64,000 bases of DNA from a virus. Taxonomy: Duplodnaviria; Heunggongvirae; Uroviricota; Caudoviricetes. Positions 13,658 through 27,127 of this stretch are shown here, in pieces. The first letter of the stretch is position 1. Each line of letters begins with the position of its first letter. Position numbers and translations under genes: made by a program. The notes beneath the pieces are model-generated. The model searched no databases, was not told where the DNA came from, and worked only from the letters and a program-made list of their open reading frames with translations. Location of the stretch: IMG/VR virus record IMGVR_UViG_2582581315_000004, positions 25,802 to 89,801 of that record, one strand, 5' to 3'.

Positions 13658-13671
13658 TGCCACCATTGGCA
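13658..13671. repeat. hairpin-RBS cassette copy (TGCCACCATTGGCA)
   Basis: Palindromic 14-mer located 15-25 nt upstream of the start of a minus-strand gene. Confidence 0.6.
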
Positions 13672-13683
13672 AATGCTGTTATT

Positions 13684-14103
13684 TCAGATGGCGGCCGGCT
13701 TGTAAACGGACCCCGATTTTGCCGAAGCGATGGCGGCCTGGATATCGGCCTGGTAGGCGTCCCGAGCTGCGCCGACGAATGTCTCGCGATGTGTGATCGC
13801 CGCGATCGCAGCCTTCAGGCACTTAGCGTCTTCGCGCGTAAACTCAGACCTCGCCATAGGCTTTACGACAAGGTCGAGCCACTCCTGTTTGATTTCGCTG
13901 AGAATAAGCGAGCGATCCTCAATATACCGCCGACTGGCGAAGCATTGGAAATCCCCCAGTTTGCGGCGCAGGAACATTTCGTGCGCCGCAGCAGCGTACG
14001 GGGATAACGCGCCGGCGCCGTGATAGTGGCGGGCGATCTGGTGGACAAGCCGGCGATGGCGTCTGTCGTCGAACCATCTTTGGATGGCATGAAGAAGTTT
14101 CAT
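13684..14103 (-). CDS. hypothetical protein
   Basis: 139-aa ORF within the minus-strand block. Confidence 0.4.
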   Translation of the reverse strand: MKLLHAIQRWFDDRRHRRLVHQIARHYHGAGALSPYAAAAHEMFLRRKLGDFQCFASRRYIEDRSLILSEIKQEWLDLVVKPMARSEFTREDAKCLKAAIAAITHRETFVGAARDAYQADIQAAIASAKSGSVYKPAAI

Positions 14104-14381
14104 CGTATGCTCCCCTCATCGACAAATTTCTGGAGATGTGGAAGCAAATCTGCAACCATTTCCCGGGTGAGATGCATGCGGGTATTGGCCACGTATTCGG
14201 CGGGCATTGGAACAGGTTCCCAACCCTCCCTGGGTGAATGAGTCCTCGGATCGGCGTTGTTGCAGCCAAGCCAAACTGCGTCCTCCATTGCCAGGCTACT
14301 TGCCTGAAGGCTGCATCCGACACCTCTGCGATCTACGAATTCTATGCGGCTGAAGCCGCGTTCAGTGGTTCTCATTTCCAT
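14100..14381 (-). CDS. hypothetical protein
   Basis: RBS GGAGAACC precedes ATG at 14381. Confidence 0.4.
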   Translation of the reverse strand: MEMRTTERGFSRIEFVDRRGVGCSLQASSLAMEDAVWLGCNNADPRTHSPREGWEPVPMPAEYVANTRMHLTREMVADLLPHLQKFVDEGSIR

Positions 14382-14427
14382 GGTTCTCCTGTTCCGTCTT
14401 CAGCGTGCCGCCGAAGACTTTGGTTTG

Positions 14428-15207
14428 TCATAGCCCGAAGTCAAAGAGCGGCAGTCCGATTTTGGTCGGGGATGCCTCACTCGTCTCTGGCGTCTGAAGT
14501 GAAGGGGGATCGATGATAAGCGGGCCGTCGTTCTGGTCCTGGCGTAACTTGCGTGACCAGCCACCCATGATGTGCGCAGGGGTGAACCAATCATCATGAA
14601 ACGACATTCGCAAAGTGTCACCGACGATGACGTGGGCTGGAATGTTCATCAAAGCGAACTGCACATACGACATGTGCACGGCGCGCGGATCCACGTCGAC
14701 GGCCACGACATGCAGATGCTGCTGATAGTTCACCCCGGCGTTCAACAACGCTTCCGCCAGCGCGATGATGGTAGCGCCGGCCCCGACGGCGGGCTCATGC
14801 GCCCGGATGAAGCCTCGCTGGTGTATGATCTGCTCGCAATCCTTTCCGTCGACCTGCAGCTCTGCCATCAACCGGCAGAGCTCGTAGGGCGTGAAGAACT
14901 GGCCACGCGCTTTGTTGTGGAGTTCGAGCGCATGGAACGTTGCGCCTAAGATGTCCTGGGGGCGGTTCTCCAGCGCCAACACGACTTCGCCCAGAATTTT
15001 GGGGAAAGCTTCAAGTTCGTTGCGCTCATAGCGCTTCACGATTTCAAGATATCGTTGCTCTCGTTTGTCCCGAGTGTTGATGTCGACCGCATTGGAGAGC
15101 GAAATTGCAGCGCATTCGCACCAGTCTGCGAAGACGCTATAAAGATCATGGCGATACCACAGAGACTCGAAGAGTTTGATGATGTTTTTCAGGTGCGGAT
15201 CATTCAT
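14428..15207 (-). CDS. N-6 DNA methylase (HsdM-like) family protein with degenerate catalytic motif
   Basis: GQFFTPYELCRLM and motif I EPAVGAGATIIA are present. GDTL is present. The expected NPPF/DPPY position reads DPPS, so the enzyme may be inactive. Confidence 0.55.
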   Translation of the reverse strand: MNDPHLKNIIKLFESLWYRHDLYSVFADWCECAAISLSNAVDINTRDKREQRYLEIVKRYERNELEAFPKILGEVVLALENRPQDILGATFHALELHNKARGQFFTPYELCRLMAELQVDGKDCEQIIHQRGFIRAHEPAVGAGATIIALAEALLNAGVNYQQHLHVVAVDVDPRAVHMSYVQFALMNIPAHVIVGDTLRMSFHDDWFTPAHIMGGWSRKLRQDQNDGPLIIDPPSLQTPETSEASPTKIGLPLFDFGL

Positions 15208-15238
15208 CGACGCGCACCCGCGGGGCGGTGATATTCAT
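15200..15238 (-). CDS. 12-codon upstream ORF (MNITAPRVRVDE) translationally coupled to the HsdM-like gene
   Basis: The conserved hairpin-GGAGATCGAACT cassette drives this uORF. Its TGA overlaps the main ATG (ATGAATGA). Confidence 0.35.
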   Translation of the reverse strand: MNITAPRVRVDE

Positions 15239-15254
15239 AGTTCGATCTCCGGAA

Positions 15255-15268
15255 TGCCACGATTGGCG
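15255..15268. repeat. hairpin-RBS cassette copy (TGCCACGATTGGCG)
   Basis: Same motif; followed on the minus strand by GGAGATCGAACT and ATG. Confidence 0.65.
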
Positions 15269-15281
15269 GTAGGGATAAGTT

Positions 15282-15866
15282 CTAGCTTGCTTGGCGATCG
15301 AAATATGCGGCCACCGCCGGCTCTGGCTCGAGCCAGAAGACGTTAGGGCGATCGATTTGGCCAAGAAGCATTTGGTAGGCGGCAATCCGTCCGATGCCGC
15401 GTGACATCACATAGAAGAGTTGTTCTTGGAATTTCTTGGCGTTCTTTATGCCGCCTAGCTCGCGCATGATCATCCCGTCGCCGATCAACTCGACAAAGGG
15501 TGTGACGTCGTCGAGTATGGAATACTCGTGGGCCTCCAGGCAGACCTCTCCCTCGGGCGTGACAATTCGCACTCGCATCTCAAGTTCAAGCTCGCGCACG
15601 ATTATGTCTGGCCGCAACGCCAGTTCCTCGTCATCATGGAATCGGAGGTGCCCTCGGCGACCGATGCGGGCAAGCGCACCTTCCTCGTCTTCATTGAGGT
15701 TTGCGCCACAGCGCTGGCGCCACAACAGTGTTCTCTCTTGCTCGGTGGTAATCTGGTTGCCTCTGCCCAGCATGCTGGAGTATCGTTCGAATACCTTTTC
15801 CGGTTTTGCGAAGTAAATGCCAAATAGTTTCGGCTGAATGCGGGTGGGCAAGCGGCGGGTGACCAT
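15282..15866 (-). CDS. SufB/SufD C-terminal-domain-like protein
   Basis: CLEAHEYSI...QEQLFYVMSRGIGRIAAYQMLLGQI resembles the conserved SufBD C-terminal block. Start taken at MVTRRL (15866). Confidence 0.4.
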   Translation of the reverse strand: MVTRRLPTRIQPKLFGIYFAKPEKVFERYSSMLGRGNQITTEQERTLLWRQRCGANLNEDEEGALARIGRRGHLRFHDDEELALRPDIIVRELELEMRVRIVTPEGEVCLEAHEYSILDDVTPFVELIGDGMIMRELGGIKNAKKFQEQLFYVMSRGIGRIAAYQMLLGQIDRPNVFWLEPEPAVAAYFDRQAS

Positions 15867-15897
15867 GATCCACCCGCCTTTGATTGGCAGGGTAATA

Positions 15898-16203
15898 TCA
15901 GTCAACTTTCGTCTCCTCGGCTCGCCCGACCGCGCGTGCCCGCTTATCTTCGGCTCCAGCGGTGCGCGCATCGATCATCTCGCGCGTCTCGAACATCTCA
16001 TGGCCAGCATTGGGGAAATCTTGGTGCCAGTGTCGCCGTCCGACTGCGTCATATATCTGATCGCGGCAATCGTCGCAGTACCAGGCATAGGAGCCGTGAT
16101 TGTACCAGCGGGCCGGCGAGCATTGGCAACGCGCGCGGTTGCAGCTCCCGTTCTCCTTGCCCTTGTCGGGTTTGTTCGGGCCATCATAGTCTCCGTACGC
16201 CAT
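15898..16203 (-). CDS. Cys-rich zinc-ribbon-like small protein
   Basis: Start MAYGDY sits after the hairpin-AAGGAGATCGA cassette. Motif CNRARCQC...WYCDDC. Confidence 0.45.
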   Translation of the reverse strand: MAYGDYDGPNKPDKGKENGSCNRARCQCSPARWYNHGSYAWYCDDCRDQIYDAVGRRHWHQDFPNAGHEMFETREMIDARTAGAEDKRARAVGRAEETKVD

Positions 16204-16216
16204 TCGATCTCCTTGG

Positions 16217-16230
16217 TGCCACGATTGGCA
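16217..16230. repeat. hairpin-RBS cassette copy (TGCCACGATTGGCA)
   Basis: Same motif; followed by AAGGAGATCGA and ATG. Confidence 0.65.
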
Positions 16231-16251
16231 ATTTGGTTTCATTTCGAAAAT

Positions 16252-16279
16252 GGGCCGAAATCCTGGCACGTTTCGGCCC
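16252..16279 (-). terminator. intrinsic terminator after the XRE regulator gene
   Basis: 9-bp GC-rich stem GGGCCGAAA...TTTCGGCCC followed on the minus strand by AUUUUCGAAAU. Confidence 0.55.
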
Positions 16280-16321
16280 CTGCTGATTGGGCGGCTGCGC
16301 CTGCTAGCCGCCTCGCTGAAG

Positions 16322-16711
16322 TCACGCGGCGATCGCTTCATCGTCACCGGTGTTCTTCAGAACCTCGCGCACGACATTGTGGATAGCCTGCCGCGCTTGC
16401 GGGCTCTTGATCCGCTGGAAGTCATTCGCCAGCCGCATGGTATCCGCCGACACTTTGCGCGACGGAGCCGGCGTCGGTGGGGCGCTGCTGGTGCCCTTGA
16501 AGAATTCCCCGACCTCGACCTCAAGCGTGCCAGCGATCATATAGAGCTTGCTCGCGCTCACTCGGTTCGCTCCCTTCTCGTATTTCTGCACCTGCTGGAA
16601 GGTGACGCCGATGGCTTCGGCGACGTTCTCTTGGCTCAGGCCGAGCGTCTCGCGCAGCCGGCGGATGTTCGCGCCCACGATCTTGTCGACGGGATGAATG
16701 CTGTCCTTCAT
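16322..16711 (-). CDS. XRE-family (Cro/CI-type) HTH transcriptional regulator
   Basis: IGANIRRLRETLGLSQENVAEAIGVTFQQVQKYEKG. RBS AGGAGAAAAGC precedes the ATG. Confidence 0.75.
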   Translation of the reverse strand: MKDSIHPVDKIVGANIRRLRETLGLSQENVAEAIGVTFQQVQKYEKGANRVSASKLYMIAGTLEVEVGEFFKGTSSAPPTPAPSRKVSADTMRLANDFQRIKSPQARQAIHNVVREVLKNTGDDEAIAA

Positions 16712-16820
16712 ATGCTTTTCTCCTAGTTGCACTTCTTGGTGGGGGTGCCAGACCGCCCGCCTATCGACGCATTGCCTGGCATTGATGCGCCCGGGCTCCG
16801 GGCCATGGCGGGGGTTGCTG

Positions 16821-18161
16821 CTAGACGCGCATCGGCATGACCACAGCGGTCCAGCCTTCGCGATTGCTGGTCATGACGATGGGCGATCCGGAATCCTCCA
16901 GATCGATCGTGACGGTTTCGCAGGAGAGCGAGGCGTCCTTGATTGCGGAAATGAGGTAACGGGCATTGAAGCCGACTTCCATCGGATCGCCGGAATAGTC
17001 GCAATCAACTTCCATCGTGGCATTGCCAGCCTCTGGGTTGTTCACGATCAGTCGGCACTTGCCCGCCGACATCTCGAATTTGACGGCGCGACCGCGCTCG
17101 CTCGAAATCAGCGAAACCGTTTCGACGCCCTCAATCAGCGCCTCTGCGTTTATCATCGCTCGCCTGCTGTTTTTCGCCGGAATGACTCGCTGGTAATCAG
17201 GGAATGTTCCGTCGATCGTCTTCGAGGTGACAACGATATCGTCGAATGTGATCCGGATCTTGCTCTCCGTCACGGCAATGGTGACGGTATCCGGGCATGC
17301 CTTGCCCTTCATGAGTTTGTGCATGACGGCAGCCATCTTTCGAGGAATGATCACGCCTGGCATGTCGTCGGTACCGAATGGCATTTCGAATTCCTGCCGA
17401 TACAGGCGATGGCCGTCGGTCGCCACGGCTGCAATGGTGCGGCGGTTGCCGTTGTTCAGAACGTGGAAATAGATCCCGTTCAAATAGTAGCGACCTTCTT
17501 CAGTCGAGATGGCATCGATTGTGCCGTCGATCATTGTCCAGAAATCCAGGCCGCGCATCGTGAACGAATTGGTCCCAGCGTCAAAGGACAGTTCGGGAAA
17601 GTCCTTGATCGGAAGCGACTGGAGATTGAAGACCGATCGCTCGAAATCCAGCGCGTCACGGTCCTCGCCCGTGGTCACCGAGACGAAATCGGACGAAGAC
17701 GCTTTCTTGAGCAGATCCTTGAGAAGATGTGCGGGCAGGGTGGTGCCGAACTGTCTGTCTGCGGCCGCCGGAATGGTGATGGCGATCTCGATATCCAGAT
17801 CGGTGCCAGTGAGGCGAAGGTGATCACCATGGCCGACGATGGCGACGTTCGATAGGATCGGGATGGAATTCCGCCGTTCGACGGCGTTGTGGATGATTTC
17901 CACCGCGCGGGTGAGGCGCGAGCGTTCGACCAACGCGGTCGCGCCGAAGGCCGGGGCAACGGGCTGGAGAGCTTCCGGCATGTTGTCGTTTTCGGCGGAG
18001 ATCTCAACGGCCGGCTCGATGGCATCGACGACTGCTTCCGGCTCCGGCTGCTTTTCCGGCGCGCGAAACGGGATGATCACGGCGGAAATCTTTTGGCTGG
18101 TTGCCGTCTCGATTGCGATCGCGGACGTGGACTCGAGAATCTTGGCAATGTGTGCGGTCAT
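16821..18161 (-). CDS. dnaN: DNA polymerase III beta sliding clamp (DnaN) with ~75-aa N-terminal extension
   Basis: LRLTGTDLD, ATDGHRL, VIIPRK, FPDYQRVIP, SPIVMTS and C-terminal VVMPMRV are all present. Confidence 0.8.
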   Translation of the reverse strand: MTAHIAKILESTSAIAIETATSQKISAVIIPFRAPEKQPEPEAVVDAIEPAVEISAENDNMPEALQPVAPAFGATALVERSRLTRAVEIIHNAVERRNSIPILSNVAIVGHGDHLRLTGTDLDIEIAITIPAAADRQFGTTLPAHLLKDLLKKASSSDFVSVTTGEDRDALDFERSVFNLQSLPIKDFPELSFDAGTNSFTMRGLDFWTMIDGTIDAISTEEGRYYLNGIYFHVLNNGNRRTIAAVATDGHRLYRQEFEMPFGTDDMPGVIIPRKMAAVMHKLMKGKACPDTVTIAVTESKIRITFDDIVVTSKTIDGTFPDYQRVIPAKNSRRAMINAEALIEGVETVSLISSERGRAVKFEMSAGKCRLIVNNPEAGNATMEVDCDYSGDPMEVGFNARYLISAIKDASLSCETVTIDLEDSGSPIVMTSNREGWTAVVMPMRV

Positions 18162-18180
18162 ATGGTCGGTCTCCTATCAG

Positions 18181-18194
18181 TGCCACAATTGGCG
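18181..18194. repeat. hairpin-RBS cassette copy (TGCCACAATTGGCG)
   Basis: Lies upstream of dnaN. Confidence 0.6.
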
Positions 18195-18258
18195 GTGGTG
18201 CCGATTGCACCCATGACCGGCGCAAAGGCCGGTCGCGGCTGAAATCGATTGGCCGACG

Positions 18259-18531
18259 CTACACACACTTCGTGAAGTCGCTCGGTCGAAGCTTTCGCCC
18301 CTTCTTGTGGTGAACGAGAAAGGTCATGTAGGGAGATATCGACAGGTCCGGCAGATCTTCCGAATCCAGCGGAAGGCCAGATACCTCGATTTCGTTGATC
18401 ACCTGATTGCGAAACTCGACAGACGTTTCGTCGTGGGTGATCAGCTTTTCGAAAGCCTCCTTGGCAGAGTCTGCCCTGACGTATGCGATGGTGCAAATGA
18501 GAACATTCGCTTGGAAGAACGGCATCAGCAT
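18259..18531 (-). CDS. hypothetical protein
   Basis: RBS GGAGGAATGCTG precedes the ATG. Overlaps the stop of the upstream gene. Confidence 0.45.
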   Translation of the reverse strand: MLMPFFQANVLICTIAYVRADSAKEAFEKLITHDETSVEFRNQVINEIEVSGLPLDSEDLPDLSISPYMTFLVHHKKGRKLRPSDFTKCV

Positions 18532-18743
18532 TCCTCCCCATCGATCGCCACTGCGCTCCAATCGGTGCGTCCCGACGCGTCCTCGATGACCTCCAGGCGC
18601 GCGATGATGGGAGAGCCGTCTGGCAGAACGCCAAGGTTCCCGGTTTCCATCTGAGCGCCTTCCAAGGCGGCGATCGCCTCTTCTTCGGTGTCAGCTTCGA
18701 TTTCGAATGCACAGTAAATTCGCGCAGCAAATTTGTATCGCAT
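18525..18743 (-). CDS. hypothetical small acidic protein
   Basis: Hairpin-CACAGGAGGTAGATCAT cassette precedes the ATG at 18743. Confidence 0.45.
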   Translation of the reverse strand: MRYKFAARIYCAFEIEADTEEEAIAALEGAQMETGNLGVLPDGSPIIARLEVIEDASGRTDWSAVAIDGEEC

Positions 18744-18760
18744 ATGATCTACCTCCTGTG

Positions 18761-18774
18761 TGCCACGATTGGCG
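18761..18774. repeat. hairpin-RBS cassette copy (TGCCACGATTGGCG)
   Basis: Same motif. Confidence 0.65.
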
Positions 18775-18796
18775 GTTTTGCTTCGATCGGTTCGGC

Positions 18797-19170: not shown

Positions 19171-19920
19171 CTAGATCCTTTCCATATTGCTGCTCTGGTT
19201 GATGAAGTCGGCGAGCAATGCGGAAGCTCTTTCCGCGCCGGTGACGACCGCTCCGCTGTCGCTTTCGATATCGACGTTGTTGTCGATCAGGTCGCGGGCC
19301 TTGGCCATGGGGGCGAGAATGGCATTCATCACCCTGTGCGCGTCTTCCTTCGTGTCGAAGTCGCCGATGGCCATGGCAAGCAATTGCCGCTCGAAACTGT
19401 ATCGGCCATATAGCGTCCAGAACGATTTGAAGATAATGCTCCGCTGAGACGCGACCGCCTCCAGACGTTTCGTCTCACTCTGGAAATCCTCTTCGTCGAT
19501 ATAGGATTCAACCTCGCCATCAGTTTCGATGCACGGGCGCACCTCGAAATATTCGAAAGCCATAGGCGTCGAGGTGACTGGCTGGGTTGCCAGTTCGTCG
19601 TCCTCGTCCAATACCGGCAATCCGGCGATGAGTTCCGCGTCAGCATCGAAGGCGATGTAGTCGCATCGCCGATCGTGCGCAAATCGGATAATCGGCAGCA
19701 AGTCGTCCGGCATGCCGCAATCCATGCCGCCGTCTTCCGGCAATACCGGCGCATGCATGAACCATCCGGTCAGAGTAGCGCCCAGCGAGCCCATAGCCGC
19801 GCCGCTGCCGGTTCCGTGGTAGTTGGCGGCATGGTTGAGGGTTGCGGCCTCAGAGAGCCAGGCGCGGGCAGCCGGCGATAGGTGCGCGGTGGACAGGTCA
19901 AGGAACGTGCGAACGGTCAT
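19171..19920 (-). CDS. hypothetical protein
   Basis: Hairpin-GGAGACC cassette precedes the start MTVRTF. Confidence 0.45.
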   Translation of the reverse strand: MTVRTFLDLSTAHLSPAARAWLSEAATLNHAANYHGTGSGAAMGSLGATLTGWFMHAPVLPEDGGMDCGMPDDLLPIIRFAHDRRCDYIAFDADAELIAGLPVLDEDDELATQPVTSTPMAFEYFEVRPCIETDGEVESYIDEEDFQSETKRLEAVASQRSIIFKSFWTLYGRYSFERQLLAMAIGDFDTKEDAHRVMNAILAPMAKARDLIDNNVDIESDSGAVVTGAERASALLADFINQSSNMERI

Positions 19921-19937
19921 GGATAGGTCTCCGATTG

Positions 19938-19951
19938 TGCCACGATTGGCA
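19938..19951. repeat. hairpin-RBS cassette copy (TGCCACGATTGGCA)
   Basis: Same motif. Confidence 0.65.
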
Positions 19952-19960: not shown

Positions 19961-20272
19961 TTAGGCGACGCATGCCGCCGGGAAATTGATCTTGAGCGGG
20001 CTCCAGACGAAATCCGCCGGCACGTCGCCATTGTGCACCCACGCACGCATGCCGCCTCGGATCCTCAGAAAGGCATCCTGATGGCTGACGGTCTGACACG
20101 GGAATGCCTTCGCGGTCATTGCCTCGATTGCCCGGTCCCGGTCATGCGGTGACTGGAAGGCAAACAGCTCCTCGCCGTTGCCCCAGTCGGACAGGACAAA
20201 GAACGTATCGAAGACGGGATGGCCCGCCGCATCGGAATAGGTCGCAATGTTCGATGGTTGATGCGTCTGCAT
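19961..20272 (-). CDS. hypothetical protein
   Basis: A half-site-swapped hairpin variant followed by AGGAGACTGAAAG precedes the ATG. Confidence 0.45.
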   Translation of the reverse strand: MQTHQPSNIATYSDAAGHPVFDTFFVLSDWGNGEELFAFQSPHDRDRAIEAMTAKAFPCQTVSHQDAFLRIRGGMRAWVHNGDVPADFVWSPLKINFPAACVA

Positions 20273-20289
20273 CTTTCAGTCTCCTATGG

Positions 20290-20302
20290 TGGCACAATTG
20301 CC
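20290..20302. repeat. hairpin-RBS cassette variant (TGGCACAATTGCC; half-sites swapped, still palindromic)
   Basis: Same position relative to the RBS and ATG as the other copies. Confidence 0.5.
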
Positions 20303-20325
20303 TTGGTCGTTTGAGGGCTGTCGGT

Positions 20326-21005: not shown

Positions 21006-21465
21006 TGGTTCGCCCCTCCGTTTTAATGCCTTGGTTCAGGCAAAGCTCTTTCCAGTCGCCTTTGAAGACGTTCGGAATCGACGCACCCGCAACATTCTTG
21101 ACCAACTGCCCAGGCACGTCTCCGGTCCGCCATCCCGCGCGGCGTCCGGCGATTTCCCATTGATCGGTTGTTGCGCCCACCGCCTTGGCAATGGCGGCGC
21201 GGGCCTGCGTCTCTATGTCGTGCTTGCCGTCGCCTTTGATTATCCCACTGTCGACCATGGCCATAAGGTTCGCGAGCGCGGCTAGAAGGTCCGGCGCGGC
21301 GGCAAACATATAGCCCAGCTCCGGATCTTCTACTTCACAGATCGAGGCGTAGTGGCTACCGTCTGCGCGCGGCTCGCCGTAGACTCCGCCTCTCCAATGG
21401 TGGTCTACCATGTGCGACCGACGCGCACCTGTCCGCGCAGGGATGAATGTGAGGTTTCTGGTCAT
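20998..21465 (-). CDS. hypothetical protein
   Basis: Hairpin-CATATGGAGATCGAAGA cassette precedes the ATG. Ends ...EGRTNG*. Confidence 0.45.
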   Translation of the reverse strand: MTRNLTFIPARTGARRSHMVDHHWRGGVYGEPRADGSHYASICEVEDPELGYMFAAAPDLLAALANLMAMVDSGIIKGDGKHDIETQARAAIAKAVGATTDQWEIAGRRAGWRTGDVPGQLVKNVAGASIPNVFKGDWKELCLNQGIKTEGRTNG

Positions 21466-21482
21466 TCTTCGATCTCCATATG

Positions 21483-21496
21483 TGCCACAATTGGCA
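21483..21496. repeat. hairpin-RBS cassette copy (TGCCACAATTGGCA)
   Basis: Same motif. Confidence 0.65.
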
Positions 21497-22014: not shown

Positions 22015-22020
22015 AGATTG

Positions 22021-23286: not shown

Positions 23287-24290
23287 GAGCCGGTTTCCGC
23301 GAGCGTCTTGTCGCGACGCTGGGAGTCGACGGCCGTCAGGACTTCATAGGCCTTTGGAATGCGTTTGACGTATTCCAGAACTGCGCCGTAATTGACCGGC
23401 GTTGCAGCCCGGGCGAGGGCGGCGGAAACCGCATACAGCGCGCCCGGGCCGGTCGGCACTCTTGCGCCGGAAGGATCTGCCAAAATGGACTTGAGCGACG
23501 GCAGATCAAGGAACGTGCGAATGAAGCCCTCGAATTCGACGGAGGGGCCAAGCCCCACGCGGCCGGCAATAAGCGGCTGGCGTAGCGATGCGTCCTTGTC
23601 GGCATACTTGAAAGCATCTGTCCACGAGCGCGGCGTGGGGAAGGCGCGAGCATCTGCCGGCATGGAGATTTCGTTTCCGTTGCCGTCGCTCATCTTGCTG
23701 CCTGGCATCAAGTGCAGCATCGAAGGGCGGAAGCGAAGGAACGCAATGCCGGCTGCCGGTTGATTGTTGGCGATTGCCCATTTCGAGTAAGCCTCGACAC
23801 TGGGAACAACGTCGATATGCGCAAAGCGGTTCGCCAGCGCTGACGGCATGCGTTGCGCGCTAGCGCGATCCGACTGCCGGTTGCCAGCGGCGACGATGCG
23901 CCATCCGGGCGGCAACTGATATTCGCCTATCCGGCGGTTCAGGATGAGCTGATAGCATGCCGCTTGCGTTGACGCGGGCGCGGCGTTGATCTCGTCAAGG
24001 AAGAGTATCCCCTTGTCACCGTCCCGCTTCGCGTCCGGAAGGATCGACGGGTTTGCCCAAACCGCCGCGCCGTCGCGGACGAATGGCAACCCGCGCAAGT
24101 CGACAGGCTCGAGGGTTGTAAGGCGCTGGTCAATAAGACCAATGCCCATTTCATCGGCGAGCTGCTGGACAATGTCCGATTTGCCAATGCCGGGCGGTCC
24201 CCAAAGCATCGCGGGCGTATCGCCCTCGACATAGGCGCGGAGGAGCGCGGTAGCGGTATCAATTGTCACGCCTTTATCATCAGTGATCAT
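23244..24290 (-). CDS. MoxR-like AAA+ ATPase
   Basis: Walker A GPPGIGKS; Walker B ILFLDEIN; sensor region AAGNR. Confidence 0.75.
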   Translation of the reverse strand: MITDDKGVTIDTATALLRAYVEGDTPAMLWGPPGIGKSDIVQQLADEMGIGLIDQRLTTLEPVDLRGLPFVRDGAAVWANPSILPDAKRDGDKGILFLDEINAAPASTQAACYQLILNRRIGEYQLPPGWRIVAAGNRQSDRASAQRMPSALANRFAHIDVVPSVEAYSKWAIANNQPAAGIAFLRFRPSMLHLMPGSKMSDGNGNEISMPADARAFPTPRSWTDAFKYADKDASLRQPLIAGRVGLGPSVEFEGFIRTFLDLPSLKSILADPSGARVPTGPGALYAVSAALARAATPVNYGAVLEYVKRIPKAYEVLTAVDSQRRDKTLAETGSWVNWCSSNSSVFL

Positions 24291-24319
24291 GATTCAAAAT
24301 CCTTTCGTGCTGGAATATG

Positions 24320-25195
24320 TCAGGCGAGGAAGTCGGAGACGTCCGCGAGGATCGAAGCGGCGGCATCCGCCACGCTTTCCCGCAAGTCTCCGTTTTCCCT
24401 GAGTGTGTCCGCATCATGCCGCGTCAATTCGCGGCGCATGCGGTCCGCGATCTCCGAAAGCTTCGGATCGCTGGTGATGTTGAGCATTGGCAGGACTAGC
24501 GCCAAGTCGCGCACATTCTCGACAAGGGAGTCGCGGAAAATGCCGTGCGCTTTCACGTTGTCGTTGCCGGGAGCGTAGTTGCGCAGTTTATCCACCATGC
24601 GCTCGCAGACTTCGGACACGCGGCGGTAAACGTCCCTAACAGCTTCCTGCAGTTGCTCTTTCGCCCGTTCTTCGATCTCGGCTCGGATCAAAGCCGCTTG
24701 CGTATCGCCGAGCGCCACGCGGAAATCCTCGCCTGCAGGAACGGGGTTGATGATCGTATCAAAGCCGAACCGACGGCGAATTTCCTCCGCGCCGGGATAA
24801 TCTTCCGCCTTGAAGAGATTGCCAAGCCGCTTGCGTGCGGCCTCGACGTGTTCGGAATATCCCTTGATGAAATCGTCCACGGCCTTTTCGAAGTCCGCCC
24901 GGATCGCCCGCAAGCGCGCCGTATAGTCGAGATAGGCGGCAGCCGGGAGGAGGCGGGCGCCATCATCCTGCCAAGGCAAGGTTCGGGAGTAGTGGAACGT
25001 CCGTGCGGCCGAGATTGCCGACTGGATCGGCTTGAGCGCGTCGCTGTTGATCAACAGCTTGTTATAGCGCCCGGCATCATTAGCCGCACCATGGGACTCG
25101 TTCACTTCATCCGTGACCTTTCGGTCAATGCGGCGAGCCGACCATGCGGACACGCGGACATGCGAAAGCATTGCTTTTTCGGACAGGACAGACAT
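24320..25195 (-). CDS. DUF3150-family phage protein
   Basis: N-terminus LSHVRVSAWSARRIDRKVTDEV fits the DUF3150 pattern. Hairpin cassette lies upstream. Confidence 0.45.
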   Translation of the reverse strand: MSVLSEKAMLSHVRVSAWSARRIDRKVTDEVNESHGAANDAGRYNKLLINSDALKPIQSAISAARTFHYSRTLPWQDDGARLLPAAAYLDYTARLRAIRADFEKAVDDFIKGYSEHVEAARKRLGNLFKAEDYPGAEEIRRRFGFDTIINPVPAGEDFRVALGDTQAALIRAEIEERAKEQLQEAVRDVYRRVSEVCERMVDKLRNYAPGNDNVKAHGIFRDSLVENVRDLALVLPMLNITSDPKLSEIADRMRRELTRHDADTLRENGDLRESVADAAASILADVSDFLA

Positions 25196-25212
25196 TTTTC
25201 ATGCTCCAGTTG

Positions 25213-25226
25213 TGCCACTATTGGCG
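25213..25226. repeat. hairpin-RBS cassette copy (TGCCACTATTGGCG)
   Basis: Same motif. Confidence 0.6.
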
Positions 25227-25254
25227 GGGGTTTGGCCGTCAGGCCGGGAAGGGA

Positions 25255-25437
25255 CTAGGAGAGGTATTCACGCTTGCGGGCGATTGCCTGGCGACGCTGG
25301 TCTCGGCGCTTGCGGCCGTCTTCCGTCTTCGAGAACGGCGCGGCATGCTTGCCGGCGACTTCGCGGCGTGGCTGGAAGTAATCTTCGAGGTTGACCGCGA
25401 AACGGCGGCGTTCGGCGGGCGTAAGCGTCTTAGACAT
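25255..25437 (-). CDS. hypothetical basic small protein
   Basis: Hairpin-AGGAGATCGAAATC cassette precedes the ATG. Confidence 0.45.
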   Translation of the reverse strand: MSKTLTPAERRRFAVNLEDYFQPRREVAGKHAAPFSKTEDGRKRRDQRRQAIARKREYLS

Positions 25438-25456
25438 GATTTCGATCTCCTATTTT

Positions 25457-25470
25457 TGCCACGATTGGCT
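25457..25470. repeat. hairpin-RBS cassette copy (TGCCACGATTGGCT)
   Basis: Same motif. Confidence 0.65.
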
Positions 25471-25481
25471 TTGTGTCGTTC

Positions 25482-25652
25482 CTAGTACGCGTTACCAGCG
25501 AAACGGCTTGCCTTTTCGCGATAATCCCGCTGCGCCAAGCCCTTGATCAGGTTGTCCAGCTTGAACTGAAGATTCGACTTTTCGAGGGGATTGCTCTCCC
25601 GCTTGATAGCCCGTTTCAGGTCACGGATTTGCTTTTCCATCGCGGTTTCCAT
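25482..25652 (-). CDS. hypothetical small coiled-coil protein
   Basis: GGTCA-variant hairpin followed by GGAGATTGAAACA precedes the ATG. Confidence 0.4.
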   Translation of the reverse strand: METAMEKQIRDLKRAIKRESNPLEKSNLQFKLDNLIKGLAQRDYREKASRFAGNAY

Positions 25653-25670
25653 TGTTTCAATCTCCGTTGC

Positions 25671-25684
25671 GGTCACGATTGACC
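25671..25684. repeat. hairpin-RBS cassette covariant copy (GGTCACGATTGACC)
   Basis: Both stem arms changed together, so the palindrome is kept. Confidence 0.6.
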
Positions 25685-25686
25685 GG

Positions 25687-25731
25687 CAGGACACTAGCGT
25701 CCTGATATCGGCACGGCGGCGCGTGCCGATA
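25687..25731 (-). terminator. two tandem stable hairpins between early genes
   Basis: CAGGAC-ACTAGC-GTCCTG and TATCGGCAC-N8-GTGCCGATA. No clear U-tract follows. Confidence 0.3.
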
Positions 25732-25740
25732 CGCAAGGCT

Positions 25741-25959
25741 CTAGGATTTGGACGCGGCCATGGTGACGCCCGGCTTTGCTTCCAGCTCGCAGACAAGCGG
25801 CGCGTGCCGAAGGTCGACAGTGACGCCCGGAACGATCTCCGCCGCGCGCACGCCTTGATGAATCGCATGCTGGCAGTCCTGATAGGTCAGGTGCTGGTCA
25901 AGCACGAATGAATGAATGTCGCCGCTCAAGATGGCGTACGCGACAAGCGCGAATTTCAT
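25741..25959 (-). CDS. hypothetical small protein
   Basis: GGTCA-variant hairpin followed by GGAGATCGAACA precedes the ATG. Confidence 0.45.
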   Translation of the reverse strand: MKFALVAYAILSGDIHSFVLDQHLTYQDCQHAIHQGVRAAEIVPGVTVDLRHAPLVCELEAKPGVTMAASKS

Positions 25960-25976
25960 TGTTCGATCTCCTCTAT

Positions 25977-25990
25977 GGTCACGATTGACC
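25977..25990. repeat. hairpin-RBS cassette covariant copy (GGTCACGATTGACC)
   Basis: Identical to the copy at 25671. Confidence 0.6.
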
Positions 25991-26035
25991 TGCTGGCATT
26001 TCCATGACCGGCGGCGCGCGCCGGTCGCGGAAAGG

Positions 26036-26425
26036 TCACGCGGCTTTGAAAGCTTGGTTCATGATTGCGTCAGCGGCGCATTTGGCCTTGTAGGCGTCCA
26101 TGACCACGGGCGGCCATCTCCGCTTGTCGGACCATCGGTCAACGCGTTGCGCGTCCAGTTGGCGCTGGAAATGATCGTCAGCGATTTGCGCCATCTCGCA
26201 TGCCGTCGCGGTATCGGTTACCGCATGCCAAACTGCGAACCGATAGACGGCGGCGCGGTCGAATGTGCCCGCGCCGGTCTTGAGGTTTCGAAGAAAGATC
26301 GTCGATCCCTTTCCCGCGCCTTGAACGGTTGCGAGATAGGGAACGCCGATGCTGGCATATGAGCCGTTCGGCACGCGGTCGAATATGATTATCGAGCCGC
26401 TTTCAGGCGTATTGAGGCTGGACAT
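26036..26425 (-). CDS. hypothetical protein
   Basis: Hairpin-CTTACGGAGTCTGAC cassette precedes the ATG. Confidence 0.45.
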   Translation of the reverse strand: MSSLNTPESGSIIIFDRVPNGSYASIGVPYLATVQGAGKGSTIFLRNLKTGAGTFDRAAVYRFAVWHAVTDTATACEMAQIADDHFQRQLDAQRVDRWSDKRRWPPVVMDAYKAKCAADAIMNQAFKAA

Positions 26426-26440
26426 GTCAGACTCCGTAAG

Positions 26441-26454
26441 TGCCACGATTGGCA
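26441..26454. repeat. hairpin-RBS cassette copy (TGCCACGATTGGCA)
   Basis: Same motif. Confidence 0.65.
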
Positions 26455-26710
26455 GGGTTTCGGCCTTGCTAGGCCTCATCAGCGGGAAAGCATCATCCCC
26501 GTACCCACGGCGCGCACCAGTGGGCCGCGCCGTTTGATGCCTCCGTTATTCCGTGCGCACGGTGGGCTAGCGCTATGATCGGTCCGCGTATGCGTGCGGC
26601 GATATTTGTCAAAGAGCTGACGCATCGAGGCGTCTCATGCTTGTTGTGTGGGAATGCTGGCGTGTGAGGCTGGCATTTCGATAACCGCCGCGTGGGCGGT
26701 TGCCGAAAGG

Positions 26711-26911
26711 TCAGGGGTGCATGGTGAGCAGGACAGGCACCAGCAAGACGGCGCATGCGGCCACGCCGAACCAGTCGAGTGCAAGTGCAGGCTGGCGTGC
26801 GGTCTGGCGCTTGGCCTGTGCTGCCTTGCCGAACGAGACGTTGGCATAGAGGCCGAGCGCCTTGACGGTGAGGATGGACATGCCGGACTTAGTGCGGGTG
26901 AGCTTGAGCAT
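26711..26911 (-). CDS. small membrane protein
   Basis: Hydrophobic C-terminus AACAVLLVPVLL. Hairpin-GGAGAACGACCA cassette lies upstream. Confidence 0.45.
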   Translation of the reverse strand: MLKLTRTKSGMSILTVKALGLYANVSFGKAAQAKRQTARQPALALDWFGVAACAVLLVPVLLTMHP

Positions 26912-26927
26912 TGGTCGTTCTCCGTTG

Positions 26928-26941
26928 TGCCACGATTGGCA
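26928..26941. repeat. hairpin-RBS cassette copy (TGCCACGATTGGCA)
   Basis: Same motif. Confidence 0.65.
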
Positions 26942-26951
26942 GGTGGTGCAG

Positions 26952-27098
26952 TTAGATCATTGAGCCGTAGGCAAAGGCGAACGTCATCGCTACCAGCGCA
27001 CCAGACGCCAGCATCACGCATACACATGCGGACTGGACGATAGCGGCGCGCTTGGCAGCGGCGCGGCGGGTGGTGCGGTTGGAAGGCTTGCGGTTCAT
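26952..27098 (-). CDS. small membrane protein (48 aa)
   Basis: GATCA-variant hairpin followed by GGAGACCGAA precedes the ATG. The C-terminal half is hydrophobic. Confidence 0.4.
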   Translation of the reverse strand: MNRKPSNRTTRRAAAKRAAIVQSACVCVMLASGALVAMTFAFAYGSMI

Positions 27099-27113
27099 TT
27101 CGGTCTCCGTTGC

Positions 27114-27127
27114 GATCACAATTGATC
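27114..27127. repeat. hairpin-RBS cassette covariant copy (GATCACAATTGATC)
   Basis: A second independent compensatory variant of the stem. Confidence 0.55.

What the first reader, a model, noticed from the sequence alone, without database searches (positions are those of the whole stretch)
13658..27127. Fifteen-copy hairpin+RBS cassette in front of the early genes, with compensatory stem changes
Fifteen minus-strand genes (about 27 in the block) carry the same ~35-nt block directly 5' of the start codon. In mRNA sense it reads NGCCAATCGTGGCA-CA-N2-4-GGAGAtCGAA-N2-4-ATG. The 14-mer is a 5-bp stem (UGCCA/UGGCA) with a 4-nt loop. In four copies both stem arms have changed together: GGTCA..TGACC twice, GATCA..TGATC once, and one copy with the arms swapped. 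Pairing is preserved in every case. That favours a structured RNA or DNA element over a simple sequence-specific operator. The conservation runs past the SD into ATCGAA, and many copies contain GATC. One copy sits only ~20 nt downstream of a strong intrinsic terminator (16252-16279). Possible roles: a translational operator for a RegA-like repressor, a stoperator-like set of repressor sites, an RNase processing or antitermination signal, or recombinogenic module boundaries.
Basis: seen in the sequence. Interest (0 to 1): 0.8.

Follow-up and report, generated by a model that had tools for sequence, protein, structure and literature searches.

The report
Repeated RNA hairpin before phage genes
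One long early operon of a Rhizobium-type phage carries the same small RNA hairpin just ahead of the ribosome-binding site of 15 genes; the hairpin is conserved and repaired by matching mutations in a dozen related phages, and has been copied into a bacterial toxin-antitoxin operon, so it looks like an undescribed signal controlling protein synthesis.

Summary
There are exactly 15 copies, all on the minus strand between 13641 and 27127. Each is a 14-mer NNNCAANNGTGNNN, then 4-6 nt, then GGAG and a start codon. A pattern scan finds 15 sites against 0.3 expected. A covariance model scores them 25-43 bits; the next hit scores 9.7.

The cassette recurs in at least 10 related Rhizobiales (pro)phage contigs, always on the sense strand of the same operon. 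Nine different Watson-Crick stem dinucleotides occur with no mismatch, 13 G·U closing pairs occur, and orthologous sites show compensatory switches. This supports an RNA stem-loop rather than a double-stranded DNA operator.

The first copy starts 8 nt after a conserved sigma-70-like promoter, at the transcript 5' end. Operator-like repeats at that promoter differ between relatives while the hairpin does not, so it is not the immunity operator.

The same cassette sits between higB and higA in Ensifer and Neorhizobium. Close higBA homologues lack it.

Best reading (about 0.4): a sequence-specific RNA operator at the ribosome-binding step, defining a post-transcriptional regulon of early cistrons. 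The main rival is a host-read translation or stability cassette. No Rfam family, sequenced phage or plasmid match was found. The closest analogues are cluster K SAS/ESAS and PeSLs.

The parts
27136..27163 (-). Sigma-70-like early promoter (TTGACA-16-TATCTT) of the cassette operon. The first hairpin begins 8 nt after the -10 element.
   Evidence: The promoter and its 7-8 nt distance to the hairpin are conserved in five relatives.
27096..27127 (-). Cassette 1: GATCAATTGTGATC-gcaac-GGAG-accgaa-ATG (48-aa gene). The hairpin lies at or within about 2 nt of the predicted transcript 5' end.
   Evidence: (34.8 bits).
26909..26941 (-). Cassette 2: TGCCAATCGTGGCA + GGAG + ATG (66-aa gene).
   Evidence: 39.8 bits.
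26423..26454 (-). Cassette 3: TGCCAATCGTGGCA + GGAG + ATG (129-aa gene).
   Evidence: 33.7 bits.
25957..25990 (-). Cassette 4: GGTCAATCGTGACC + GGAG + ATG (72-aa gene). The orthologous site in L163 and L154 has (T/C)GCCA..TGGCA instead.
   Evidence: (40.7 bits).
25650..25684 (-). Cassette 5: GGTCAATCGTGACC + GGAG + ATG (56-aa gene). The orthologous site in L047 and L235 has GGCCA..TGGCC.
   Evidence: (43.1 bits).
25435..25470 (-). Cassette 6: AGCCAATCGTGGCA + GGAG + ATG, in front of g60.
   Evidence: 39.5 bits.
25255..25437 (-). g60: a 60-aa basic protein with a conserved arginine-rich C-terminus (GRKRRDQRRQAIARKRE). It is only a candidate for the hairpin-binding factor; this is inferred, not shown.
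   Evidence: Every contig fetched through a g60 homologue carries the cassettes.
25193..25226 (-). Cassette 7: CGCCAATAGTGGCA + GGAG + ATG (DUF3150 gene).
   Evidence: 37.2 bits.
21463..21496 (-). Cassette 8: TGCCAATTGTGGCA + GGAG + ATG (155-aa gene).
   Evidence: 40.5 bits.
20270..20303 (-). Cassette 9: AGGCAATTGTGCCA + GGAG + ATG (103-aa gene). The GGCA/TGCC stem is inherited at this gene in all four close relatives.
   Evidence: 39.3 bits.
19918..19951 (-). Cassette 10: TGCCAATCGTGGCA + GGAG + ATG (DUF5983 gene).
   Evidence: 37.4 bits.
18741..18774 (-). Cassette 11: CGCCAATCGTGGCA + GGAGG + ATG (72-aa gene).
   Evidence: 33.9 bits.
18159..18194 (-). Cassette 12: CGCCAATTGTGGCA + GGAG + ATG (DNA polymerase III beta clamp gene). 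The orthologous site in L047 has GATCA..TGATC.
   Evidence: 36.5 bits.
16250..16279 (-). Intrinsic terminator-like hairpin (GGGCCGAAA/TTTCGGCCC followed by ATTTT) after the XRE gene, 20 nt upstream of cassette 13.
   Evidence: read from the sequence.
16201..16230 (-). Cassette 13: TGCCAATCGTGGCA + GGAG + ATG (101-aa gene).
   Evidence: 36.8 bits.
15236..15268 (-). Cassette 14: CGCCAATCGTGGCA + GGAG + ATG of a 12-codon mini-ORF. The mini-ORF stop overlaps the start (15207) of the N6-methyltransferase gene.
   Evidence: 37.3 bits.
13641..13671 (-). Cassette 15: TGCCAATGGTGGCA + GGGG + TTG (177-aa gene). This is the weakest copy.
   Evidence: 25.2 bits.

Best explanation
The 14-mer is an RNA stem-loop in the sense transcript of one long leftward early operon. 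That operon runs from the promoter at 27163-27136 down to about 13110. The stem has 4 obligatory base pairs plus an optional fifth, and the loop is the tetraloop A-N-N-G.

The hairpin, the GGAG Shine-Dalgarno sequence held 4-6 nt downstream, and the following A-N-Y-G-A-A form a portable translation-initiation cassette of about 35 nt. The cassette precedes nearly every cistron that starts translation independently; overlapping, translationally coupled genes lack it.

The loop and the two loop-proximal pairs are sequence-conserved. The lower stem only has to pair. This is the signature of a hairpin read by a sequence-specific partner. The most likely mechanism is therefore that the hairpin is an operator bound by an RNA-binding protein right beside the ribosome-binding site. 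Such a protein could control translation initiation, and possibly cleavage or stability, of about 15 early cistrons together. That would make a post-transcriptional regulon, for example for shutting off or boosting early genes.

Shown: the copies, their positions, strand and operon restriction, conservation in relatives, base-pair covariation including G·U, and independence from the promoter's operator-like repeats.

Inferred: that a protein binds, which protein it is, and the direction of the effect. The arginine-rich 60-aa g60 (25437-25255) is only a candidate.
For: - Copy number and placement: 15 sites against 0.30 expected, all sense-strand and confined to one operon.
- Fixed geometry relative to the SD: the gap is 4-6 nt in 55 of 62 copies from five related elements.
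- Covariation: in 63 distinct copies, pairs 12-23 and 13-22 are Watson-Crick in 126 of 126 cells (GC 56/AU 7; CG 46/UA 11/GC 6). None of 500 shuffles reached the observed covariation score.
- A tally across seven genomes used a copy definition that ignores the outer stem. About 88 true copies used nine different Watson-Crick stem dinucleotides with no mismatch, and 13 had G·U at the closing pair.
- Compensatory switches at orthologous genes: g72a, g56 and dnaN.
- Where the A5-U10 pair is lost (L238, L242: U10 to C in 27 of 28 copies, all 17 in L238 and 10 of 11 in L242), the outer G1-C14 pair becomes fixed, keeping 4 bp.
- Sequence conservation of C4, A6, G9 and G11 across contigs whose proteins are only 38-78% identical. 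A structure-only element would not need this.
- The hairpin is weak on its own, about -5 kcal/mol. This fits a protein-stabilised site.
- It is restricted to the early operon although late genes also need efficient translation.
- Lineage-wide concerted variants accompany a distinct g60 subfamily ('SGDYAET': P0025 and P0027, with the C10 hairpins of L238 and L242).
Against: - No RNA-binding domain was detected in any block protein by Pfam or PHROGs.
- The arginine-rich tail of g60 is unchanged in the lineage whose hairpin changed.
- g60 co-occurrence is confounded by shared ancestry.
- An IMG/VR contig with three cassettes (L127) was not recovered by the g60 search.
- The same hairpin is kept between higB and higA in Ensifer and Neorhizobium genomes. 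Those genomes gave only a single pattern match each, so they carry no resident phage of this type. This argues for host machinery, or for an intrinsic role.
- The first copy sits at the transcript 5' end in five relatives. This fits a 5'-stabiliser at least as well.
- Concerted evolution by recombination among copies could mimic sequence constraint.
Confidence: 0.4

Rival explanations
1. A cis-acting cassette read only by host machinery. The hairpin insulates the SD or docks the 30S subunit, and forms a protective 5' end. Cleavage in the G-poor tract upstream, followed by 5'-to-3' trimming, would stop at the hairpin. Each cistron would then be an independently stable, efficiently translated unit. 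No dedicated regulator is involved.
For: - The only machinery common to the phage operon and the host higBA copy is the host ribosome and RNases.
- In higBA the cassette precedes the antitoxin, which must out-express the upstream toxin. Close higBA homologues lack it, so it is an acquired module.
- The first hairpin starts 7-8 nt after the -10 element in five relatives, flush with the 5' end, and there always has a closed G-C terminal pair.
- A copy follows a terminator by 20 nt.
- The 10 nt upstream are G-poor: 15% against 29% for the operon.
- Coupled genes lack the cassette.
Against: - Structure-only stabilisers or insulators do not need an invariant loop and closing pairs across about 150 copies in diverged genomes.
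- A stem of -5 kcal/mol is a weak barrier.
- Late and replication genes of the same phage do not use it.
- Host genomes carry at most single copies, which is odd for a general ribosome-recognised enhancer.
Confidence: 0.3
2. A boxB-like antitermination site. The arginine-rich protein g60 binds the nascent hairpins and makes RNA polymerase resistant to terminators and Rho along the 14-kb operon. Many sites are needed because the effect is short-range.
For: - g60 has a conserved arginine-rich helix-like tail (GRxRRxxRRxAIARKR). From general knowledge, this resembles the arginine-rich motifs of lambdoid N proteins.
- The hairpin is a small 4-5 bp stem-loop.
- An intrinsic terminator lies inside the operon at 16279-16250 with genes beyond it.
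- The first site is next to the promoter.
Against: - No boxA-like conserved sequence lies upstream.
- There are 15 sites instead of one per operon.
- The tight 4-6 nt spacing to the SD and the absence at coupled genes have no reason under antitermination.
- The host higBA copy has no terminator to read through.
- g60 shows no detectable homology to any solved or Pfam protein.
Confidence: 0.07
3. A DNA-level repressor site (stoperator-like). A phage DNA-binding protein, for example the XRE protein at 16322-16711, binds the 14-bp palindrome at +1 of the early promoter and at 14 intergenic sites to block transcription in the lysogen.
For: - The first copy overlaps the predicted +1 of the early promoter.
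- The sites are intergenic and all in one orientation, as described for the L5 stoperators (from general knowledge).
- The arms are palindromic, and an XRE gene lies in the block.
Against: - A dimer reading two half-sites gives no reason for both arms to change together, yet all about 88 true copies keep complementarity through nine stem types.
- G·U (G·T) closing pairs break DNA symmetry in 13 copies.
- The centre is asymmetric and always oriented with the gene.
- The spacing is tied to the SD, not to promoters.
- Operator-like repeats around the -35 element differ between relatives while the hairpin is constant.
- The XRE gene is absent from the equivalent region of L047.
- The host copy lies between higB and higA.
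- The phage XRE is unrelated to HigA.
Confidence: 0.05
4. Mainly a recombination linker, in the manner of PeSLs. The conserved 35-nt cassette has no expression role beyond carrying an SD. It persists because it lets ORFan modules be swapped between phages by short-homology recombination.
For: - Gene content and order differ between relatives, with several unique genes and one order swap.
- Ends of nucleotide homology with eight related loci fall within 15 nt of a cassette 19 times out of 74. Random placement gives 4.6 +/- 2.1, with a maximum of 13 in 2000 trials.
- The cassette has been transferred into an unrelated host operon.
Against: - Recombination homology does not require a base-paired stem, yet pairing is maintained by compensatory change.
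- The breakpoint enrichment is partly expected, because cassettes sit at gene borders and are themselves conserved.
- This reading is compatible with, rather than exclusive of, an expression function.
Confidence: 0.08

Closest known systems
[quoted passage not shown]
   Same: Both are short conserved repeats that include the SD. They lie a few nucleotides before the start codons of a subset (11-19) of non-structural genes, in one orientation, with an inverted repeat just upstream in many copies. They are conserved gene-by-gene among related phages. Their function is still unknown, and translation control is suspected.
   Different: The sequence is unrelated (GGGATAGGAGCCC against GGAGAYYGAA). 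ESAS arms are 17 bp with 4-13 bp spacers, and its authors found little support for an mRNA hairpin because departures are not compensated. Here the arms are 4-5 bp with a 4-nt loop, and compensation is pervasive. The host is an alphaproteobacterium, not Mycobacterium.
PeSLs (promoter-early stem-loops) of T4-type phages (PMC2839356; PMC4122927)
   Same: Both are repeated intergenic cassettes ending in an SD and start codon. They flank small ORFan genes in a plastic early region and are associated with modular shuffling.
   Different: A PeSL is about 100 bp and contains a strong sigma-70 promoter plus a terminator-grade stem-loop. These cassettes are about 35 nt, contain no promoter, and their stem-loop is far too weak to terminate.
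Hairpin translational operators bound by proteins (RNA-phage coat protein operators such as MS2 and PP7; the T4 gp43 operator; the thrS operator). From general knowledge.
   Same: Each is a small stem-loop at or next to the SD. Its loop and upper stem are sequence-specific and its lower stem only needs to pair. A bound protein blocks 30S entry.
   Different: Those are single sites controlling one gene. Here one hairpin type precedes about 15 genes, and no binding protein is known.
T4 RegA and RegB control of early mRNAs. From general knowledge.
   Same: Both involve coordinated post-transcriptional control of many early cistrons at their ribosome-binding sites. RegB cleaves within GGAG, and GGAG is nearly invariant here.
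   Different: RegA sites are unstructured and AU-rich. No RegA or RegB homologue was detected.
Lambda nut boxB and the N protein. From general knowledge.
   Same: Both have a 5-bp stem-loop in the nascent early transcript. Here a conserved arginine-rich small protein (g60) is encoded in the same operon.
   Different: There is no boxA. The loop is an ANNG tetraloop, not a GNRA-like pentaloop. There are 15 sites tied to SDs rather than one per operon.
Stoperators of cluster A mycobacteriophages (L5 gp71). From general knowledge.
   Same: Both comprise many short sites in small intergenic gaps, all oriented with transcription, with one at the early promoter.
   Different: Stoperators are asymmetric DNA sites with no self-complementarity requirement, and they are spread over the whole genome. 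Here complementarity is selected, G·U pairs occur, the sites are confined to one operon, and they are conserved across relatives with different operator-like repeats.

Membership tests
Cluster K SAS/ESAS | A 13-bp asymmetric repeat, GGGATAGGAGCCC, with at most 2 mismatches, lying 3-8 bp before the start codon. | tested here: not met
   The conserved SD block here is GGAG-A-N-Y-G-A-A. No GGGATAGGAGCCC-like sequence appears in the alignments.
Cluster K SAS/ESAS | A pair of imperfect 17-bp inverted repeats with a 4-13 bp spacer, whose departures are not compensatory. | tested here: not met
   The arms are 4-5 bp, the loop is 4 nt, and the arms are strictly compensatory.
Cluster K SAS/ESAS | About 11-19 copies, restricted to non-structural genes and in one orientation. 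| tested here: met
   There are 15 copies in the window and 14 in the 20-kb locus L250. All are sense-strand and none lies in the structural or replication arms.
PeSL (T4-type) | Each cassette contains a strong sigma-70-like early promoter. | tested here: not met
   Only 5 promoter-like sites occur in 18.5 kb, below the shuffled mean of 6.7. Just one lies next to a cassette, at 27163-27136, ahead of the first copy.
PeSL (T4-type) | A stable stem-loop that terminates or attenuates transcription. | tested here: not met
   The free energy is -2.7 to -5.1 kcal/mol and there is no U tract on the sense strand.
PeSL (T4-type) | Association with mosaic joints and ORFan shuffling. | tested here: met
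   Of 74 homology ends, 19 fall within 15 nt of a cassette, against 4.6 +/- 2.1 at random. Gene order and content differ between relatives.
Lambda-type nut site | A boxA element upstream of a boxB stem-loop that has a GNRA-like pentaloop. | tested here: not met
   No conserved sequence lies upstream of the hairpin, and the loop is the 4-nt A-N-N-G.
Lambda-type nut site | An N-family antiterminator protein with an arginine-rich motif. | tested here: inconclusive
   g60 has a conserved arginine-rich tail, but shows no homology to any Pfam family or solved protein. RNA binding cannot be tested with these tools.
L5-type stoperators | The same site serves as the immunity repressor's operator at the early promoter. 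| tested here: not met
   Operator-like repeats flanking the -35 element differ among relatives (ATGCGCAT/ATGCGAAT; CCAAACGGCAT twice; GCCGTTTGGCA/GCCGAATGGCA). The +1 hairpin is constant. Binding itself cannot be tested here.
L5-type stoperators | Asymmetric sites spread through both genome arms. | tested here: not met
   The sites are self-complementary and confined to 13641-27127.
T4 RegA/RegB regulon | A RegA or RegB homologue is encoded by the phage. | tested here: not met
   No such family appeared in Pfam or PHROG scans of the block proteins.
Any Rfam family | A match to a curated covariance model. | tested here: not met
   At gathering thresholds only tRNAs match in the window. In 13000-28000 there is nothing even at E <= 1.

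The most novel reading that the evidence does not exclude
The hairpin is the operator of a phage-encoded, sequence-specific RNA-binding regulator. The candidate is the arginine-rich 60-aa protein g60. The regulator would switch the translation of the whole early operon.

Rhizobial higBA toxin-antitoxin modules have captured the same operator in front of the antitoxin gene as a tripwire. When an infecting phage of this clade expresses its regulator, synthesis of the labile antitoxin stops. HigB is then released and the infection aborts.
Probability: 0.07. Interest if true: 0.9.

Novelty: new variant of a known kind. Interest (0 to 1): 0.68.

Why it matters
Repeated 'start-associated' motifs in phage early regions have been known since 2011, but none has a demonstrated mechanism. 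For the best-known case, an RNA structure could not be supported.

This is a second, unrelated example in phages of nitrogen-fixing and plant-associated bacteria. The evidence for an RNA stem-loop is unusually clean:
- about 150 copies in about a dozen genomes;
- nine compensated stem types;
- G·U pairs;
- lineage-wide variants.

That makes the question directly testable. A 14-nt hairpin with defined disrupting and compensating mutants, together with a short list of candidate partners, could show how a temperate phage coordinates translation of a whole block of ORFan genes.

The cassette is portable. It has entered a bacterial toxin-antitoxin operon and marks the joints of gene shuffling. It may therefore also be useful as a compact expression part for Rhizobiales, and as a marker for annotating gene starts in these phages.

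Tried and rejected
(1) Near-identical or distant DNA matches. The block has no megablast hit in 50,697 phage records. The 35-nt consensus finds nothing convincing in phages or PLSDB plasmids.

(2) Rfam, at gathering and E <= 1 thresholds: nothing.

(3) An equivalent element in the nearest sequenced phage, 16-3 (beta clamp 40% identical). A generic hairpin+SD scan and the covariance model both found none.

(4) Single-protein related-loci searches in IMG/VR with DUF5983 and dnaN found no relatives. The 18-sequence g60 alignment was too divergent to search with.

(5) XRE as a HigA-like binder. There is no similarity between the phage XRE and the host HigA. There are no HigB or HigA homologues in any cassette phage.

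(6) g60 as a phage ribosomal protein bS21. hhalign gave a probability of 0.2%.

(7) A loop-to-downstream pseudoknot (loop UCG with the CGA after the SD). By inspection, loop variants do not covary with the post-SD bases (alignment A4). This was not tested formally.

(8) A larger structure around the cassette. Folds of 60-nt contexts have z-scores between -1.5 and +0.9, so only the small hairpin recurs.

(9) Resemblances considered from memory and dropped on reading the sequence:
- a sigma-54 promoter (TGGCAC is present, but there is no TTGC 5 nt later);
- a LacI/CcpA-type 14-bp operator (the central CG is off-centre by one);
- an FNR/FixK box (different half-sites);
- an integron attC site (far too short);
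- an antisense-strand terminator (the stem is too weak).

(10) Pfam and PHROG scans of 26 block proteins found no RNA-binding, nuclease or Cas6-like domain.

Full report
**What the window is**

The 64-kb window is a tailed-phage or prophage genome of a Rhizobiales host.
- The plus-strand arm 1-13079 encodes an anti-repressor, DNA methyltransferase, helicase, primase and DnaB-like helicase.
- The plus-strand arm from about 28000 encodes a sigma factor, RtcB ligase, nucleotidyltransferase, three tRNAs, terminase, portal and head proteins.
- Between them lies a minus-strand block, 27163-13110, with about 26 mostly small genes. Those with hits are DUF3150, a MoxR-like AAA ATPase, a VWA/DUF2201 protein, DUF5983, a DNA polymerase III beta clamp, an XRE regulator and an N6-methyltransferase. 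The rest have no Pfam or PHROG function.
- The beta clamp is 40% identical to that of Rhizobium phage 16-3.
- Nothing in 50,697 phage records is close at the DNA level.

**The observation**

In mRNA sense each reads: NNN-CAANNGTG-NNN, then 4-6 nt, then GGAG (GGGG once), then 5-9 nt, then ATG (TTG once).

Chance is excluded by three tests.
- TGCCANNNNTGGCA occurs 6 times against 0.09 expected.
- CAATNGTG-N6-10-GGRG hits 15 sites against 0.30 expected.
- A covariance model built from 62 copies, run with all filters off, returns exactly these 15 (25-43 bits). The next hit scores 9.7 bits.

Every copy is on the minus strand between 13641 and 27127.

Three details need correcting.
- The outermost pair is mismatched in 7 of 15 copies, so the obligatory stem is 4 bp.
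- Copy 15255-15268 precedes a 12-codon mini-ORF whose stop overlaps the methyltransferase start.
- Conservation continues after the SD as GGAG-A-N-Y-G-A-A.

Genes that overlap or abut the upstream stop codon have no cassette. About 15 of roughly 20 independently initiated genes carry one.

**Relatives**

Pattern scans and a search with the small protein g60 recovered the same cassette in the following:
- A syntenic Rhizobium azibense prophage, 70-75% nucleotide identity (L047/L120/L250; 14 model hits in 20 kb, all sense-strand).
- Rhizobium lusitanum (L163/L172) and a Rhizobiales isolate (L141/L154).
- Metagenome contigs L235 and L127.
- Seven loci from six distinct contigs (L240 and L243 duplicate parts of L239 and L242), fetched through g60 homologues 33-66% identical: L238-L246.

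Phage 16-3 has no equivalent. The 35-nt consensus finds nothing in INPHARED or PLSDB. Rfam has no match even at E <= 1. The element therefore belongs to a small, unsequenced-in-isolation clade.

**Is it a structure, and of what?**

- In 63 distinct copies, the two variable inner pairs are Watson-Crick in all 126 cells (GC 56/AU 7; CG 46/UA 11/GC 6). None of 500 shuffles reached the observed score, and every slid register collapses.
- I then defined copies only by the core C-R-N3-R-Y-G and its distance to an annotated start, so the outer stem played no part in selection. Among 147 gene starts in seven genomes, about 88 true copies emerge. They use nine different stem dinucleotides: GCC/GGC, GTC/GAC, ATC/GAT, GGC/GCC, AGC/GCT, ACC/GGT, CCC/GGG, CGC/GCG and CTC/GAG. 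None has a mismatch.
- Orthologous genes carry different but always paired stems:
  - g72a has GGTCA/TGACC here and TGCCA/TGGCA in L163.
  - g56 has GGTCA/TGACC here and GGCCA/TGGCC in L047 and L235.
  - dnaN has CGCCA/TGGCA here and GATCA/TGATC in L047.
- The loop-closing A-U pair becomes G·U in 13 copies (L154, L241, L245, L246).
- In L238 and L242 the U becomes C in 27 of 28 copies (all 17 in L238, 10 of 11 in L242). There the outer G-C pair, optional elsewhere, is fixed, so four pairs are kept.

A dimeric DNA-binding protein gives no reason for the arms to co-vary. G·U pairs break DNA symmetry but not RNA pairing. The asymmetric centre always has the same orientation relative to the gene, and the position is tied to the SD. 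Together these support an RNA stem-loop in the sense transcript. Single-stranded DNA cannot be formally excluded. The hairpin alone is worth only about -5 kcal/mol, and no larger fold recurs around it.

**Context on the transcript**

- A sigma-70-like promoter (TTGACA-16-TATCTT, 27163-27136) precedes the block.
- The first hairpin starts 8 nt after the -10 element, at or within about 2 nt of the expected start site.
- The promoter, the 7-8 nt distance and the fully closed GATCA/TGATC stem are conserved in five relatives.
- In the same five, the short repeats flanking the -35 element look like the real repressor operators. They fall into three unrelated types while the hairpin is unchanged.
- The XRE gene is missing from the corresponding region of L047.
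- These points argue against the stoperator/XRE idea.
- A terminator-like hairpin with a U tract (16279-16250) is followed 20 nt later by cassette 13. Expression of the last six genes therefore needs read-through or an unseen promoter.

**Host copies**

A scan of one genome from each of 185,579 species gave 74 hits. About 60 are unrelated chance matches, as expected for an 18-nt pattern.

Outside prophages, the Rhizobiaceae hits are single copies. Most lie between the stop codon of higB and the SD of higA:
- in four Ensifer/Sinorhizobium species;
- in two Neorhizobium species;
- in one metagenome contig.

The stop codon abuts or overlaps position 1 of the 14-mer. GCCAATCGTGGCAC is invariant, while the flanking coding DNA is about 76% identical.

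HigA homologues of about 74% identity from Brucella, Rhizobium pisi and Paraburkholderia have 12-25 nt spacers with no hairpin. The cassette is therefore an acquired insertion in higBA. One further full cassette lies in the purM leader of a Shinella genome.

The phage has no HigBA homologue, and its XRE is unrelated to HigA. The motif is thus portable between unrelated genes. It is kept in genomes that show no sign of a resident phage of this type.

**Mosaicism**

Gene content and order differ between relatives. Five window genes have no counterpart, and one pair is swapped in L047. Ends of nucleotide homology with eight related loci fall within 15 nt of a cassette 19 times in 74, against 4.6 +/- 2.1 for random positions. 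This fits cassette-bounded modules. Part of the signal is inevitable, because cassettes are conserved and sit at gene borders.

**Mechanism**

The features that any explanation must cover are:
- sense-strand RNA pairing;
- an invariant loop and top pairs over a merely paired lower stem;
- a 4-6 nt gap to an almost invariant GGAG;
- use at independently initiated early genes only;
- the first copy at the 5' end of the transcript;
- portability, including into a host operon.

The conservation pattern is that of hairpins read by a sequence-specific partner beside the ribosome-binding site. I therefore rank first an RNA operator for a protein that coordinates translation, or cleavage and stability, of the early cistrons (0.4).

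Supporting this, lineage-wide variants of the loop-proximal bases occur (U10 to C in L238 and L242). Those two lineages share a distinct g60 subfamily. g60 itself is a rare family, 30 clusters among 5.8 billion, with a conserved arginine-rich tail, and it is present in every contig examined.

Against it, no RNA-binding domain is detectable. The arginine-rich tail does not change with the hairpin. Co-occurrence is confounded by ancestry. The host higBA copy has no phage protein to serve it.

The main rival (0.3) is a cassette read only by host machinery. In that model the hairpin insulates or docks the ribosome-binding site and provides a protected 5' end. This explains the 5'-terminal first copy and the antitoxin-proximal host copy well. 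It explains the sequence invariance and the restriction to one operon poorly.

The remaining readings rank lower:
- N/boxB-like antitermination (0.07);
- a DNA operator (0.05);
- a pure recombination linker (0.08, and not exclusive of the others).

**Comparison with known systems**

- The closest described phenomenon is the SAS/ESAS system of cluster K mycobacteriophages. It has the same genomic logic but an unrelated sequence and much longer repeats. Its authors found no compensatory support for an RNA hairpin (PMC3203893). Its function was still untested in 2025 (PMC12699233).
- PeSLs of T4-type phages share the 'regulatory cassette at ORFan borders' idea. They are defined by a promoter and a terminator-grade stem-loop, and both are absent here.
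- Protein-bound hairpin operators (MS2-type, T4 gp43, thrS), the RegA/RegB early-mRNA regulon, lambda boxB/N and L5 stoperators are functional analogies only. Their defining features were tested where possible and are not met (see the membership table).

**Verdict**

This is a real, non-random, evolutionarily maintained RNA hairpin-plus-SD cassette. It is specific to the early operon of a small clade of rhizobiophages, and there is one clear case of capture by a host toxin-antitoxin operon. It is a new variant of the 'start-associated repeat' kind. It is better supported as an RNA structure than any described member of that kind. Its mechanism is still inferred.

Noticed in passing
window 15200-15238 (minus strand): Cassette 14 drives a 12-codon ORF (MNITAPRVRVDE). 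Its TGA overlaps the ATG at 15207 of the N6-methyltransferase gene (ATGAATGA). The PHROG profile match starts at profile position 16. The cause could be a leader peptide or coupling device, a frameshift, or a sequencing error.
   Followed up: partly
L150 3860-3895; also L136, L140, L165, L204, L208, L233: The same hairpin+SD cassette lies between higB and higA in Ensifer/Sinorhizobium and Neorhizobium, starting at the higB stop codon. Homologous higBA loci from Brucella, R. pisi and Paraburkholderia (L247-L249) lack it.
   Followed up: yes
L159 3700-3760 (minus strand): A complete cassette (AGCCAATCGTGGCA-ctcca-GGAGATCGA-tagc-ATG) precedes purM in a Shinella genome. A second partial TGCCAATCG lies about 45 nt upstream.
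   Followed up: partly
window 25255-25437 (minus strand): g60 is a 60-aa protein of a very rare family (30 clusters in 5.8 billion). It has an invariant arginine-rich C-terminus, GRxRRxxRRxAIARKRxFL. It is always found in cassette-bearing contigs and matches no known domain.
   Followed up: partly
window 27136-27200 (minus strand); L120, L163, L141, L241 equivalents: Short repeats flank the -35 element of the early promoter (ATGCGCAT and ATGCGAAT here). In relatives they are replaced by unrelated repeats (CCAAACGGCAT twice; GCCGTTTGGCA/GCCGAATGGCA). They are probably immunity operators defining different immunity groups.
   Followed up: partly
window 21497-22020: About 520 nt between the VWA gene and cassette 8 have no convincing ORF, yet are 72-78% conserved in L047, L172 and L241. 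The content is unknown (a small gene, an sRNA or a promoter).
   Followed up: no
window 26455-26710: About 250 nt between the 66-aa gene and cassette 3 contain only short overlapping ORFs. The gene call there is uncertain.
   Followed up: no
window 13672-27137: the 10 nt upstream of each hairpin: The tract just 5' of the hairpins is G-poor and A/C-rich (G 15% against 29% for the operon's sense strand). The bases after the SD follow A-N-Y-G-A-A. Neither feature is explained.
   Followed up: partly
L047 8163-8206 (minus strand): This is a degenerate copy in front of the DUF5983 orthologue. The GCCA/TGGC stem is kept but the loop is expanded to 11 nt (15.4 bits).
   Followed up: no
window 20528-20758 and 15898-16203 (minus strand): Two small cysteine-rich proteins are encoded here: g76 with CxxC...CxxC, and g101. 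They look like zinc fingers. They were noted as alternative nucleic-acid-binding candidates.
   Followed up: no
window 28509-29009, 30622-31344, 38298-39701, 40242-41270; tRNAs at 29721, 30424, 43205: The phage also encodes a BrnA-type antitoxin domain protein, its own sigma-70-family sigma factor, an RtcB RNA ligase, a nucleotidyltransferase and three tRNAs (Met, Ser, Gly). Together these suggest an RNA-repair and counter-defence toolkit.
   Followed up: no
L244 (whole locus): In this distant relative the hairpin loop is one nucleotide shorter (GCC-ATCGC-GGC or GCCA-TTG-TGGC), and C and T alternate at the position equivalent to 10. It is a third structural variant of the cassette.
   Followed up: partly
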